Source: Octopus vulgaris (taxonomy: Eukaryota). From it: a DNA stretch of 64,000 nt. The stretch lies in assembly GCA_951406725.2 (NCBI GenBank), contig OX597815.1, forward strand, positions 149,048,001-149,112,000, read 5' to 3'. This document shows, piece after piece, positions 42,489 through 48,390 of the stretch. The notes beneath the pieces were generated by a model. It saw only the letters and a list, made by a program, of their open reading frames with translations. It was not told the origin of the DNA and made no database searches. The translations under genes were made by a program, and so were the position numbers. The first letter of the stretch is position 1, and each line of letters opens with the position of its first letter.

Positions 42489-42686
42489 CATAATAATAAT
42501 ATTAATCATGATAACAATATTAGCAACAACAACAACAACAGCAACACCACCACCACCACCACCACCACCACCAACAACAACAACAACAACTACAATAATA
42601 ATAATAATAATAATAATAATAATAATAATAATAATAATAATAATAATAATATTAATAATAATAATAATAATAATAATAATAATAAC
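42489..42686 (+). repeat. Compound (CAA)n-(CCA)n-(TAA)n microsatellite
   Basis: Directly visible. Confidence 0.95.
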
Positions 42687-44052
42687 GGTTGTAAAGATTA
42701 ACTACTCATCAGTAAGATTGTCACAAACGACACAAAAACATATCAATAGCCTGGATAGACTATAAAAAGGCTTTTGATAGCCTACCACATAGGCGGATTA
42801 AGAAATGCCTAGAAATGTATAAGATAGCACCTACTCTGCGAAACTTTGTCTGTAAGTATGAGATCATGGAGAACCACACTAAATTTGAACAGTGACAATG
42901 AATCTCTAAATGCTGGTGATGTAAAAATTTCATGTGGAATTTTCCAGAGTGACTCACTATCACAACTCCTCTTCTGTTTTGCACGAAACAGGCAAAGGAA
43001 CATCTAAGTGAATTCCGAATACAGCAAATTTCGGAATTAGAGATAGACATACAAGAAACAAGCACAGAAAATGCTAAGCGCATGAAAACCCATGCTAAAA
43101 CTGCGACCTTAGATATTCTGAATGATAAATGGCAAGAAAAACCTCTCTATGGCAAATACCCAAAGAGAGCGAATAATGCAGATGTTGACAAAGCCCTAAC
43201 CCATCAATGGCTAATGGCGTCTGGCTTAAAATCTGAAACAGAGGGGTTTATCATAGCAGCTGAAGATCAATGCCTACCAATAAGAAACTACCAGACCAAC
43301 ATATTAAAAAACGGCAGTGGCCAATCATGTCGTGTATGTCAACATCAAAATGAAACCATTGATCATGTTGTCTCCAAATGCAGTCTTCTACCGCCTACAG
43401 AGTATCTTAACAGGCATGATAGAGCTGCACAATATATTCACTGTGTAATCTGCAAAAACCTGGATTTGCCCCATGAAAAAAGACTGGTGGGAACACAAAC
43501 CACCTCCAGTGTTTGAAAATGACCACATCTCACTCCTCTGGAACTTCCCCATTCAAACTGACAGAAAGATAGATGCAAATAGGCCAGACAACATATTGAA
43601 ATACTTCAGACAAAGAACATGCCTCCTCATTGATATGACTGTCCCAATCGATATAAACCTATCTGTCAAGACTTTCCAAAAACTGAGCAAATATAAAGAT
43701 CTTGAAATAGAAATCAGTAAAAACGTGAAACCTGAAGACTAAAACAATACCCGTTGTCATAAGTGCCCTGGGAATGATAGCAAAAGGGGCTGATTGCTAT
43801 CTAACTCAGATACCAGGAAACCCCAAAATGACAGAAATTCAAAAGATAGTGCTCATATGAACTGTTCATATCCTACGCAAAATACTTTCTATGTATTTTT
43901 TTTTAGACATCCACAAGTACAACACCAAAGAAACCCCAAATATATGACACTCTAGGCATAACCACAACGTGAACTTCCAACCTGTTGTCTCTTGAAGTCT
44001 CTGGGTGAGACTTGGAGCCAACTTGTACAAACATAAAGCGAAAGGCAAACGT
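42687..44052 (+). mobile_element. R4/Dong family C copy, 5'-truncated and internally deleted
   Basis: GCKD, IAWIDYKKAFDSLPH, GIFQ.DSLS.LLF, then a jump near 42985 to post-RT sequence. WQEKPLYG, GLKSETEG, CRVC..H..C, RHD, NRPD, LIDMTVP, then the 3' UTR and (TAA)n. Confidence 0.9.
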
Positions 44053-44158
44053 ATAATAATAATAATAATAATAATAATAATAATAATAATAATAATAATA
44101 ATAATAATAATAATAATAATAATAATAATAATAATAATAATAATAATAATAATAATAA
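44053..44158 (+). repeat. (TAA)n microsatellite between two elements
   Basis: Directly visible. Confidence 0.98.
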
Positions 44159-47007
44159 ACAAACCTGTGGATAAATAACATCCAAAACAAAATTTAAAAA
44201 ATTAGAAAAGACCTGTCGATTCTTAATGAAATCAGCAAACAATCAACGCTACTGAGCAACAAAAAGAGAACAAAAATGCTCCGCAAATATAACATCACAG
44301 AAAAAGATTTGATTTGCCGGAGATAAAAGAAAAGCTGAAGCAAGATATCCTTGCCAAAGCTCAAAGGATCCGCCGGGACGAGAAACGCCAACGCTTCTTT
44401 GAACAGAACAAAAAGTTCAACTCCAACCCCAAAAGTTCTACCAAGAACTGGGAAAAAATAAAATAGAAGTCACTGCAGCACCAACGGCAGAAGAATTGGA
44501 AGAATTCTGGAGAGAAATAAGGTCGGCGAACGAACAGCCAGAAAAAAAGGAGTTATCAAAATAACAAACTCGGCATCTGAACAACTTTGGACCCCCATAA
44601 CAACTGAAGAGGTCACCCAGGCACTGCAAAAACTAAGCAACTAGAAGGCACCTGGGCATGACAAGATCCCCAACTTCTGGTTGAAATATCTAACAGGAAT
44701 GCACAAAAAGCTTGCTGAAAACTTTAACAGCATACTAGCAGAGCCAGAGACAATGCCTGAATGGCTCACGAAGGGGAAAACCATCTTAATTCCCAAATCA
44801 AATGAAACAGCAAAACCAAAAAACTACAGACCAATAACCTGCCTCCCTACTATGTTCAATGCATTTACTGTAGTGATATCGCAAAGGCTGAACAAGCACC
44901 TGGACGAAAACAAACTGTTCCCAGAAGAGCAGAAAGGATGCCGCAAAGGCTCATATGGCTGTAAAGATCAACTAATGATTAATAAAGCCGTAACTGAAGA
45001 CAACCACAGAAAGAAGAAAGGCCACAGTATGGCTTGGATTGACTACAAAAAGGCGTTTGATAGCATCCCCCACACATGGATCCTCGAAACACTAGCCATT
45101 AACAAAGTAGCACCAACAATCATAAAATTCATAGAGCACTCTATGAATAAATGGCAAACAGTGCTACACCTCCAAACAAAAGAGGGACTCATGAAAACCA
45201 AAGACATCCCTATTAGAAGAGGAATATTCCAGGGAGGCACGCTCTCTCCACTCCTTTTCTGCTTGGCACTGTCACCTCTATCTGATATGCTAAATAGAAC
45301 TGGATGCGGATATAAATGTTACGGCAAAACGATCAGCCACCTTTTATATATGGATGACCTAAAACTATACGCTGCAAATGACAAACAGCTGGAAACACTA
45401 TTAAAGACAGTTCATGGATTTACCAAAGAAATAGATATGAAATTTGGATTAGAAAAATGCGCCAAAGTAACCATGAAAAGAGGAAAACTAGTTAAGAGTA
45501 ACAACATCACACTAGATAAAACCAATGAAATAAAAGAATTAGACCAAAGCCAAACTTACAAATACTTAGGAATCCATGAACTAGATAAGACACAACACAC
45601 ACAAATGAAAGAGAAAATTAAAAAAGAAAAATTACAGACGAGTTAGATCAATACTAAAAACAGAGCTCAATGCTAAAAACAATATAATAGGTATCAACAC
45701 TTTAGCTGTCCCAGTTAAAAGTTACAGCTACAATATCCTTAACTGGACACGAAATGAACTGTCCAAAATAGATAGGAAAACAAGAAAAATACTGACAGGA
45801 TCTAGGATGCATCACCCAAAATCTGACATAGAAAGACTATATATACAACGTATAGAAGGTGGTAGAGGCCTTATACAGCTGGAAAACTACTATAAAATAA
45901 CCACCATAGGACTGCAAAAATACCTACTACAGAAGGAAGGAAAACTGATCCAGATAGCAGCAAACACGAGCAAAACAAAAAACTGTTCTCAGTATTAAAG
46001 GAAGCTGACAAATACAAACAAGAAATCATACCACCTAATAAACACGAAGAAGAAGAAGAAGATGATGAAGAAGCAACAAAAGCTATAAAACAAATGAAAT
46101 CCAAACTAAAAATAGAACAGCAACGAACCATGATAAAACGATGGCAAGAAAAGCCCCTTCATGGTAAATACTGCACTAAACTAAACGCAAAAGAAATAGA
46201 CAAAGAAAAATCCCAGCAATGGTTGAGAAGCTCAGGACTCAAAGCAGAAACAGAGGGATTTTTAATTGCAGCACAAGACCAAAGCCTCCCCACCAGAAAT
46301 TACCAAAAACATGTAATGAAAAGAAATATTACAAGTAACTGCAGAATATGTGGAAATGGACAAGAAACAATAAATCATATTATCTCTAGCTGCCCAGTCC
46401 TGGCTAAGAAGGAATATATTCACAGACATGACAGAGTTGGAACCTACATACATTGGAAGCTATGCCAACATTATGGAATAACAACAGAAAAAACATGGTA
46501 TAGGCACACACCAGAAAAGGTCACAGAAAACGAGAAAGCAACCATACTCTGGGATATGCCGATACACACAGATAGAGAAATTAAGGCCAACAGACCAGAT
46601 ATAGTTGTCAGAGATCATGAAGAAAAAAAATGCTTTCTAATTGATGTATCAATACCGGCAGATGACAACGTGTCTCTAAAAGAAATGGAGAAACTCTCAA
46701 AATACAAAGACCTGGAAATAGAGGTAACTAGAATGTGGAATCTGAAAACAGAAACAATTCTTATCATAGTACGTGCATTAGGCATGAAAAAACAATATTC
46801 AGACAAATACATAACAAAAACACCAGGACTTACAAACACATATAACATACAGAAAATTGCACTACTAGGCACTGCACACATCCTACGCAGAACAGTTTCC
46901 CATACAATAACCATCAGAGCATCACAACAAATCACAGCACATACCCAAGGCACACAGAGCTGCGCTCGGTAGTGAAGTGAAAGCACGCTATAAAAATAAA
47001 ACTACTG
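44159..47007 (+). mobile_element. R4/Dong family B copy, 5'-truncated ~2.85 kb, frameshifted
   Basis: KAPG.D, NYRPITCL, EEQKG, WIDYKKAFDS, GIFQG..LSPLLF, YMDDLK (ORF 44681). HHPKSD..RLY (ORF 45807). CRIC..H..C, RHD, RPDIVV..LIDVSIP, KY.DL (ORF 46094). (TAA)n on both sides. Confidence 0.94.
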
Positions 47008-47133
47008 AATAATAATAATAATAATAATAATAATAATAATAATAATAATAATAATAATAATAATAATAATAATAATAATAATAATAATAATAATAATAAT
47101 AATAATAATAATAATAATAATAATAATAATAAT
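47008..47133 (+). repeat. (TAA)n microsatellite
   Basis: Directly visible. Confidence 0.98.
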
Positions 47134-47600: not shown

Positions 47601-47619
47601 AAAGCGCTTACCCATCAAT

Positions 47620-48172
47620 GGATAATAGACTCTGGTGTGTGCACAAACAACCTCCAGTGCTTGAAAAGGGTCATATCCCACTCTTCTGGAACTTCACCAT
47701 TCAAACTGGCAGAGTGATAGATGCAAATTAGCCATACATCATATTTGAAGACTTCAGACAAAAATCATGCTTCCTCATTGATATGACTGTCCCGATGGAT
47801 ATAAACCTATCTGTCAAGACTTACCAAGAACTGAGCAAGTATAAAGATCTTGAAATAGAAATTAGCAAAATGTGGAACCTGAAGACTAAAACAATGCCTG
47901 TTTTCATATATGCCCTGGGAATTATAGCAAATGGCACTGATTGCCACCTAGCTCAGATACCAGGAAACCCCAAAATGGCAGAAATTCAAAAGATAGGGAT
48001 CATGGGAACTGCTAATATCCTACGCAAAATACTTGCTATATAATCTCAAGTTTTAAAACAAACATAATTTTCGTATGTTTTTGTTTTATTTATTCATTTT
48101 TTTAGTCATTCACTTGTACAACACTAAATACAAAACCAAATATATGGCATACTAGGCATAACAACAACATGA
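47620..48172 (+). mobile_element. 3' RLE fragment of R4/Dong family C with partial 3' UTR
   Basis: Clear DNA similarity to 43480-43975. ORF 47783 reads MTVPMDINLSVKTYQELSKYKDLEIEISKMW. Confidence 0.88.
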
Positions 48173-48173
48173 A

Positions 48174-48250
48174 TTATTATTAATAATAATAATAATAATA
48201 ATAATAATAATAATAATAATAATAATAATAATAATAATAATAATAATAAT
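48174..48250 (+). repeat. (TAA)n microsatellite
   Basis: Directly visible. Confidence 0.97.
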
Positions 48251-48390
48251 AGAATGCTCAGTAGAGCTCCTAGAGAAAGTGTCTCCTTAGAGACAGCAAA
48301 GAATATCAGGAGATACCTAAGTTTACAGGTAGTAAATCACCATCCACATAATTTCTTCCAGGTATAGGATCAAACCTAAATCAAACCAAA
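48251..48390 (+). mobile_element. Very short degraded 3' end of another R4/Dong-type element
   Basis: SVELLEKV..LETAKNIRR resembles the C-terminal LLQK..LL.TA.ILR motif. Followed by tacctaag and decayed taa repeats. Confidence 0.5.

What the first reader, a model, noticed from the sequence alone, without database searches (positions are those of the whole stretch)
42489..48390. Multi-family, co-oriented train of RLE retrotransposons strung on (TAA)n spacers
Seen: five element pieces (42687, 44159, 47134, 47620, 48251) from at least three sequence families, all on +. Four start immediately after a (TAA)n tract, each at a different truncation point. The clusters at 1-4475 and 21720-23055 show the same pattern, and no minus-strand copy was seen. 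Established: Dong/R4 elements target TAA repeats. Inference: each insertion leaves TAA on both sides and so keeps or multiplies targets, giving self-extending landing-pad arrays shared by divergent families and possibly driving genome-wide TAA abundance.
Basis: partly seen in the sequence, partly recalled or inferred. Interest (0 to 1): 0.72.

Follow-up and report, generated by a model that had tools for sequence, protein, structure and literature searches.

The report
Dong retrotransposons stacked in TAA repeats
Five decayed jumping-gene pieces of four families lie nose to tail between TAA repeats, a pattern common across this animal genome, likely because this known group inserts one way into TAA and leaves TAA on both sides for the next arrival; they adjoin only a minority of the genome's TAA.

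Summary
The array is real: five co-oriented pieces of R4/Dong-type non-LTR retrotransposons from four families (B, A, F, B, a fifth piece of another family), 75-98% like their nearest copies, so probably inserted at very different times. Four start at a (TAA)n tract. Orientation follows the TAA strand genome-wide: the first 100 listed 3' ends of family A (6,692 in all) and of family B (3,331) all run into TAA-type repeat. Co-oriented ends cluster (A-B within 5 kb: 10 same-strand, 0 opposite, 0.73 expected). TAA is a pre-existing target: 11 of 69 copies of an unrelated repeat with an internal TAA tract carry a Dong-type insert there. Net TAA gain per insertion is suggested, not shown. The idea that Dong drives genome-wide TAA abundance is not supported: Dong adjoins 20% of TAA tracts (25% of units). 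TAA-specific Dong elements are published for molluscs, Dong-R4 for octopus, and this scan noted similar TAA-linked stacks in seven of eight listed earlier findings on other DNA. The freshest item lies outside the coordinates: a 558-bp non-coding element with over 5,000 copies that behaves like a Dong passenger without detectable Dong sequence.

The parts
42212..42342 (+). (TAA)n tract, 32 units, left end of the array
42345..42490 (-). Deleted remnant of an abundant tRNA-like SINE (S1), antisense to TAA, 76-82% to other copies
   Evidence: A/B-box reading is by eye
42488..42685 (+). Degenerate TAA/CAA/CAC tract ending in pure (TAA)n, 34 TAA units
42687..44053 (+). E1, family B, 5'-truncated in RT, ~730-bp deletion at ~42980, complete 3' UTR; 88-93% to nearest copies
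   Evidence: deletion junction unique in the genome, bridged by a contig of run X10
44054..44158 (+). Pure (TAA)35 spacer
44159..47009 (+). E2, family A, 5'-truncated (starts at nt 1121 of a 3971-nt full-length copy); RT, CCHC and RLE regions with frameshifts; 97-98% to nearest copies, the least diverged piece
47010..47133 (+). Pure (TAA)41 spacer
47134..47590 (+). E3, family F, RT-region fragment lacking its 3' part; 79% to nearest copies
47591..48180 (+). E4, family B, fused to E3 without a TAA tract, ~270-bp deletion at ~47625, last ~84 nt of 3' UTR missing; 82-86% to nearest copies
   Evidence: junction bridged by contigs of runs X2 and X3
48181..48250 (+). (TAA)23 spacer
48251..48400 (+). 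E5, last codons and 3' UTR of a further Dong-type family, decayed TAA-rich tail; 75-81% to nearest copies
   Evidence: joined to the unique right flank in 4 of 4 runs laid
1..2109 (+). 3' half of a full-length family D element with an open 1275-aa frame (starts ~2.5 kb before the window, after a TAA tract and another Dong 3' piece)
   Evidence: L280
2179..2736 (+). Element X, 558-bp non-coding TAA-flanked retroposon-like element
2860..4480 (+). Heavily decayed Dong-type piece (K)
21720..22460 (+). Old family C 3' piece ending in TAA
22533..22876 (+). Family A 3' piece (344 bp, 98%), TAA on both sides

Best explanation
These are R4/Dong-type non-LTR retrotransposons that sit in (TAA)n with a fixed polarity, and the array likely grew by successive independent insertions, each splitting a TAA tract into two that remained targets of the same polarity. 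Shown: family identity, polarity, TAA at both junctions, TAA present before insertion, clustering, a wide spread of divergence, later deletions. Inferred from established RLE biology: the endonuclease nicks the TTA strand and the reverse transcriptase primes there on an RNA ending in UAA repeats, which fixes orientation. Inferred with weaker support: each insertion adds some TAA (tail or duplication), so occupied sites become somewhat better targets. Co-orientation needs no interaction between families.
For: Polarity: 100 of 100 listed family A ends and 100 of 100 family B ends run into TAA-type repeat, while both genome strands are used equally (3258/3434 and 1674/1657). In random DNA, 17 of 21 intact 3' ends touch a same-strand tract and 0 an opposite one; for 5' ends it is 16 of 24 and 0. 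Pre-existing target: of 69 S2 heads examined, 51 are empty (head-TAA-body), 11 carry a co-oriented Dong or X insert in the internal tract (one duplicated pair, one doubtful) and 7 are unresolved. Clustering on the first 28.8 Mb of C1, pairs within 5 kb: A-A 10 same/2 opposite (0.86 expected each), A-X 7/1 (1.08), A-B 10/0 (0.73). A tract with Dong upstream has Dong downstream 6 of 18 times against 10 of 118 (P 0.008). Independent insertions: the pieces are 97-98, 88-93, 82-86, 79 and 75-81% like their nearest copies and none duplicates another. Families A, B, D and H are 50-59% identical in protein and fall in four separate places among 120 outside homologues. Literature: Dong targets (TAA)n in insects, molluscs and cnidarians (PMC7998251, passages).
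Against: No target-site duplication signal: 4 of 38 informative copies against 3.3 in shuffles. Pure TAA runs are not significantly longer on the 3' side than on the 5' side (P 0.36 for A, 0.45 for X). Only 38 of 60 family A 5' junctions lie within 12 nt of a tract; by eye most of the rest are internal breaks, 5' repeats, inversions or lie near a tract, and at least 2 are plainly non-TAA. The excess of family A ends with a Dong or X neighbour across the 3' tract (14 of 30, read by eye, two pairs overlapping) shrinks from P 0.0005 to 0.07 once targets are weighted by pure-run length. Regional tolerance or long original tracts could therefore give much of the clustering.
Confidence: 0.85

Rival explanations
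1. No gain: insertions only split pre-existing long, pure TAA tracts, and arrays mark the few very long tracts or insertion-tolerant regions. The polarity is the same, but there is no self-extension.
For: Site counts 91/19/7/3 match a length-proportional Poisson (89.8/22.1/5.6/1.7). A squared-length target bias explains the longer filled S2 sites. Free tracts of 70-139 units exist. No duplication signal was found.
Against: That Poisson uses present-day summed length, which already includes any gain. Filled S2 sites hold a median 111 bp of repeat (10 sites) against 34 bp in 51 empty ones, above linear length bias (expected mean 74, observed 131; P 0.014). The head-side tract alone (median 55 bp) exceeds the whole empty tract (P 0.017).
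Confidence: 0.35
2. The array arose partly by tandem or segmental duplication, unequal exchange between TAA tracts, or read-through retrotransposition of several elements at once.
For: An earlier AI note (e1-10313245, other genome, unchecked) reports a stack half built by duplication. Duplicated filled sites occur here (L184/L185).
Against: The two family B pieces differ in their deletions and are about 86% alike. The E1 deletion junction occurs once in the genome with up to 2 mismatches. The best other match to E3 among the 40 scored is 79%.
Confidence: 0.05
3. Mis-assembly that joined unrelated pieces through TAA tracts.
For: No record laid spans any of the long TAA spacers; short-read contigs break there.
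Against: The non-TAA junctions are bridged in independent runs: E3/E4 in X2 and X3, the E1 deletion in X10, E5 with the right flank in all four laid. The same architecture recurs in dozens of loci, including inserts lying between the correct head and body of S2.
Confidence: 0.04
4. Dong-type elements are the main source of this genome's TAA microsatellite.
For: Dong-adjacent tracts are longer (median 18 against 9 units; P 0.034) and hold 30-32% of long pure runs (42-46% with X). Very old copies may be unrecognisable.
Against: 71 of 138 tracts (52% of units) touch no recognised element and 24 touch only SINE-like repeats. AT, AC and ACAT repeats, which are not Dong targets, are more abundant. 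An unrelated repeat carries its own internal TAA in at least 2,999 copies.
Confidence: 0.1

Closest known systems
Dong elements of the R4 clade (Bombyx mori Dong, DongAg, DongBg of the snail Biomphalaria, Darwinula Dong1/2; PMC7998251 and PMC3812793, passages read)
   Same: One ORF with RT, CCHC finger and C-terminal restriction-like endonuclease; a conserved N-terminal block with a Myb-like lead and no N-terminal zinc finger; (TAA)n at both junctions. Family D begins GAGCTCC after TAA, and a primer in PMC3774820 shows Bombyx Dong beginning GCTCC after TAA.
   Different: At least nine families by 3' UTR coexist here, in tens of thousands of pieces by extrapolation from 1.2 Mb, and they stack with one another. 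The passages read do not describe such stacks.
Dong-R4 LINEs annotated in octopus genomes (PMC13282606, part 1 of 3 and passages; PMC9115989, passages)
   Same: Same clade, with recent activity reported (5 families, 1129 near-intact insertions in O. vulgaris). This genome is probably an octopus according to earlier AI notes and my recall of its SINE; not tested.
   Different: A term search of PMC13282606 gave 0 hits for TAA and for nested; the one TAA hit in PMC9115989 is a primer. Their supplements were not read.
Telomeric-repeat and U2-gene arrays of target-specific non-LTR elements (SART/TRAS recalled; Utopia tandem arrays, PMC4640811, passages)
   Same: Repeated insertion into a repetitive target gives head-to-tail arrays with fixed polarity.
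   Different: The target here is a dispersed microsatellite, so arrays are scattered and short (at most 3 elements per site in the random sample, 5 in this window).
Non-autonomous passengers of RLE elements (R2 SIDEs, RIME/SIDER; recalled)
   Same: Element X shows the same target, polarity, 5' truncations and repeated 5'-end copies as family A.
   Different: Those derive from their driver by internal deletion; X has no detectable similarity to any Dong family sampled.

Membership tests
R4/Dong clade | Single ORF with non-LTR reverse transcriptase | tested here: met
   RVT_1 E 1e-32 in E2 and 2e-22 in family D; open 1275-aa frame in L280; closest solved structures are R2 proteins, E 7e-29
R4/Dong clade | C-terminal CCHC finger and restriction-like endonuclease (RH[DN], RPD, D/E..K motifs), no APE domain | tested here: met
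   Motifs conserved across three families and 12 homologues (motif names recalled); zf-RVT E 6.5e-6; no APE family reported by Pfam. The family D copy has W at the last finger cysteine.
R4/Dong clade | N-terminal Myb/SANT-like domain without zinc fingers | tested here: inconclusive
   Conserved block and no N-terminal finger in the alignment; Atlas lead Myb_Rap1 at 0.85, below 0.9; no Myb match in Pfam
R4/Dong clade | Insertion into (TAA)n with fixed polarity | tested here: met
R4/Dong clade | RT tree groups with named Dong, R4 and Rex6 | not testable with these tools
   None of the 120 listed homologues is named Dong, R4 or Rex6; the tree holds unnamed homologues only and has no outgroup
R4/Dong clade | HDV-like self-cleaving ribozyme at the 5' end | tested here: inconclusive
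   Families A and D share GCTCC...GGAGC near the 5' end; simple folding cannot show the pseudoknot; these 5' ends were not scanned against Rfam; cleavage untested
R4/Dong clade | Target-site duplication | tested here: inconclusive
   4 of 38 informative copies against 3.3 shuffled; a duplication of pure TAA would be invisible
SINE (for element X) | Head derived from a Pol III RNA | tested here: not met
   No Rfam match near a gathering score, best E 0.45
SINE (for element X) | 3' tail shared with a partner LINE | tested here: not met
   No blastn hit at E 1e-5 to 19 Dong library entries; no protein hit at E 0.05; several families are represented only by fragments
SINE (for element X) | Short, non-coding, fixed 3' end, variable 5' truncation, discrete 5' end | tested here: met
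   22 of 44 copies start within 15 nt of position 1 and the rest are 5'-truncated; no shared sequence upstream in 100 listed 5' ends other than TAA or X's own repeats

The most novel reading that the evidence does not exclude
Dong-type insertion adds TAA on each event, so a guild of at least nine Dong lineages and a 558-bp passenger with no Dong-derived sequence feed a growing network of landing pads, some of them seeded and spread by an unrelated Penelope-type terminal repeat that carries TAA inside it. X would be a free-standing hitch-hiker of an RLE enzyme, recognised by little more than its UAA tail.
Probability: 0.4. Interest if true: 0.5.

Novelty: new member of a known kind. Interest (0 to 1): 0.3.

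Why it matters
For the array itself, little: it is what a known microsatellite-specific retrotransposon is expected to build. Two things are useful. First, thousands of copies of an unrelated repeat with an internal TAA tract give filled and empty paralogous sites, so whether insertion lengthens a microsatellite can be measured inside one genome. Second, element X, if copied by Dong proteins without sharing their sequence, is a natural probe of how RLE reverse transcriptases choose templates, which bears on their use for gene insertion.

Tried and rejected
Target-site duplication search: no signal above shuffles. 3' against 5' pure-run length: no difference. Rfam on the window, on X and on three S2 loci: nothing significant, so the hammerhead and tRNA readings of S2 rest on eye, recall and earlier AI notes. 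Consensus folding of X ends: no compensatory pairs among 52 3' and 40 5' ends, and no match to the bulged 3' hairpin seen by eye in families A, B, D and H. Public runs are short-read contigs that do not cross the long TAA spacers, so empty alleles and the order across spacers stay untested. Eleven of 39 first-pass Dong pieces in the random sample (protein-only hits, and family I hits without a 3' end, probably other clades) were dropped before the final counts. The random sample is 120 of 140 drawn 10-kb stretches, from contigs C1-C22 within lower-bound lengths (about 1.85 of 2.8 Gb). Pattern lists cover only the first 100 places on C1. Five paper searches listed no title or abstract on stacked Dong arrays or on a Dong passenger; subscription papers (Kojima and Fujiwara 2004, Xiong and Eickbush 1993) and Repbase were not seen, and no supplement was read, so either may already be described there.
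Full report
Observation. The region 42.2-48.4 kb holds TAA tracts of 32, 34, 35, 41 and 23 units separated by repeat-derived DNA. Translated searches place five pieces of one kind of non-LTR retrotransposon on the + strand. E1 (42687-44053) and E4 (~47590-48180) belong to family B, E2 (44159-47009) to family A, E3 (47134-~47590) to family F, and E5 (48251-~48400) to a further family. E1, E2, E3 and E5 start directly after TAA, at different points of the element. E4 is fused to E3 without a tract; E3's 3' part is missing after E4, so a later deletion is the likelier cause (inference). 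E1 and E4 carry private deletions and E4 lacks its last ~84 nt. Identity to the nearest copies held is 97-98% (E2), 88-93% (E1), 82-86% (E4), 79% (E3) and 75-81% (E5), which points to insertions at very different times. A minus-strand SINE remnant at 42345-42490 lies between the first two tracts.

Identity. The proteins carry RT, a CCHC finger and a C-terminal restriction-like endonuclease. Their closest solved relatives are R2 proteins. The N-terminus has a conserved block with a Myb-like lead (0.85; no Pfam match) and no zinc finger, as described for R4/Dong (PMC7998251, passages). No named Dong, R4 or Rex6 sequence was among 120 listed homologues, so clade membership rests on architecture and target, not on a tree with references. 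In a tree of 124 rows, families A, B, D and H fall in four separate places among outside homologues; they are 50-59% identical to one another. At least nine families can be told apart by 3' UTR in the loci fetched.

Polarity and target. The window lies in a 2.8-Gb genome. An exact family A 3' anchor occurs 6,692 times and a family B anchor 3,331 times, evenly on both strands; all of the first 100 listed places of each continue in TAA-type repeat. In 120 random 10-kb stretches, after dropping 11 doubtful pieces of 39, 17 of 21 intact 3' ends and 16 of 24 5' ends touch a same-strand tract. No intact 3' end and no 5' end touches an opposite one, against about 0.24% by chance. Among 60 family A copies of at least 90% identity, 60 have TAA at the 3' end and 38 within 12 nt of the 5' junction. 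Head-to-head arrangements exist where TAA and TTA tracts abut (L043, L045, L047). That TAA is a target and not only a tail is shown by an unrelated repeat (S2) built as head-(TAA)n-body, with at least 2,999 copies. Of 69 heads examined, 51 are empty, 11 hold a co-oriented family A, B, H or X insert in the tract, and 7 are unresolved. Earlier AI notes call S2 a Penelope terminal repeat; I did not check that.

Clustering. On the first 28.8 Mb of C1, pairs of 3' ends within 5 kb are co-oriented far above a uniform expectation, while opposite pairs are near it: A-A 10 and 2 (0.86 expected each), A-X 7 and 1 (1.08), A-B 10 and 0 (0.73; six B ends). At 50-100 kb the contrast fades. In the random sample, a tract with Dong upstream has Dong downstream in 6 of 18 cases against 10 of 118 (P 0.008), and elements per site are overdispersed (91/19/7/3, P 0.002). 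Multi-family trains like this one are common around family A and X ends.

Is it self-extending? Each insertion leaves two tracts that are used again; that much is shown. Net gain is not settled. Ten singly filled S2 sites hold a median 111 bp of simple repeat (lengths read by eye; several sites were reached through Dong- or X-anchored loci) against 34 bp in 51 empty ones. That exceeds linear length bias (P 0.014 for the mean, 0.049 for the median), is marginal with a minimum-length bias (0.039, 0.11) and is explained by a squared-length bias (0.26, 0.43). Site counts fit both a geometric model and a length-weighted Poisson. No duplication of imperfect units and no 3' excess of pure TAA was found.

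TAA abundance. AAT is the commonest trinucleotide repeat but fourth overall: 5,868 bp of 1.2 Mb, after AT, AC and ACAT. Dong adjoins 28 of 138 tracts and 25% of units, Dong or X 43 tracts and 35%, and 71 tracts with 52% of units adjoin nothing recognised. Dong is a substantial tenant and possibly a contributor, but not the main source on this evidence.

Assembly. Contigs of public runs bridge the E3/E4 junction (X2, X3), the E1 deletion (X10) and E5 with the unique right flank (4 of 4 runs), some under other organism codes. None crosses a long TAA spacer, so the order across spacers rests on the assembly. The E1 junction is unique in the genome and E3 has no copy above 79% among 40 scored, which argues against duplication.

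Element X (2179-2736). It is 558 bp with no similarity to the proteins held or to the Dong library and no Rfam match. Exact 3' and 5' anchors occur 5,027 and 5,803 times. 99 of 100 listed 3' ends run into TAA-type repeat. By my reading about 81 of 100 listed 5' ends follow TAA, 15 follow repeats of X's own sequence (11 of them at one locus) and 4 follow other DNA. Half the sampled copies are full-length, the rest 5'-truncated, and identity reaches 99%. Target, polarity, truncation and repeated 5' copies match family A (L048, L231), so mobilisation by a Dong protein is likely (inference, about 0.75); the partner family is unknown.

Mechanism. Established for RLE elements: target-primed reverse transcription from a nick on one target strand, and 5' release by an HDV-like ribozyme, shown for Bombyx Dong (PMC3774820, passages). 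Applied here by inference: a nick on the TTA strand fixes polarity, the split tract stays a target, families with the same specificity arrive independently over a long period, and deletions erode old members.

Novelty. TAA-specific Dong is published for insects, molluscs and cnidarians (PMC7998251, PMC3812793; passages) and Dong-R4 is reported as recently active in octopus (PMC13282606, part 1 and passages; PMC9115989, passages). Seven of the eight earlier findings listed describe TAA-linked retroelement stacks on other DNA, several with a second clade in the opposite polarity, which is richer than this case. My five paper searches listed nothing on stacked Dong arrays or a Dong passenger, but key subscription papers and Repbase were not seen. 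Verdict: new member of a known kind, interest 0.3.

Noticed in passing
window 2179-2736: 558-bp non-coding element X with over 5,000 copies, Dong-like target, polarity and truncation, but no detectable Dong sequence or Pol III head; not found among earlier findings by sequence.
   Followed up: partly
L171-L200, L261-L300 (S2): Repeat built as tRNA-like head, (TAA)n, hammerhead-like body, often as an inverted pair; its internal TAA is used as a landing site by Dong families A, B, H and by X.
   Followed up: partly
window 4626-6003, 8617-9028, 9945-10191, 36287-36465, 42345-42490: Abundant tRNA-like SINE (S1, 197 pieces in 1.2 Mb) with internal 184-bp tandem repeats; where it touches a tract it is antisense to TAA (8 of 194 3' ends, 13 of 195 5' ends, none same-strand). 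It may seed some TAA tracts.
   Followed up: partly
L280 1624-5451 (window 1-1950 and upstream): Full-length family D element with an open 1275-aa frame; the last cysteine of the CCHC finger reads tryptophan in this copy. No copy above 77% was among the loci held.
   Followed up: partly
L048 8060-8205, L231 879-1012, G000:C1:30148148-30149012: Tandem repeats of an element's own 5' stretch (26 nt in family A, 19 and 68 nt in X) at 5' junctions, as expected from repeated template jumps.
   Followed up: no
L017, 5' junction of an X copy: A tRNA-like fragment stands directly before a full-length X copy, possibly a template switch.
   Followed up: no
3' UTRs of families A, B, D, H (window 46940-46975, 43985-44025, 2035-2075): Bulged stem-loop of similar shape in otherwise unalignable UTRs; E4 has lost it.
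   Followed up: partly
window 31259-34897, minus strand: Decayed non-LTR element of another clade with RT (RVT_1 E 2e-30), CR1-like by recall; no TAA tract was found beside it.
   Followed up: no
window 30132-30402: 102-bp tandem repeat, 2.6 copies.
   Followed up: no
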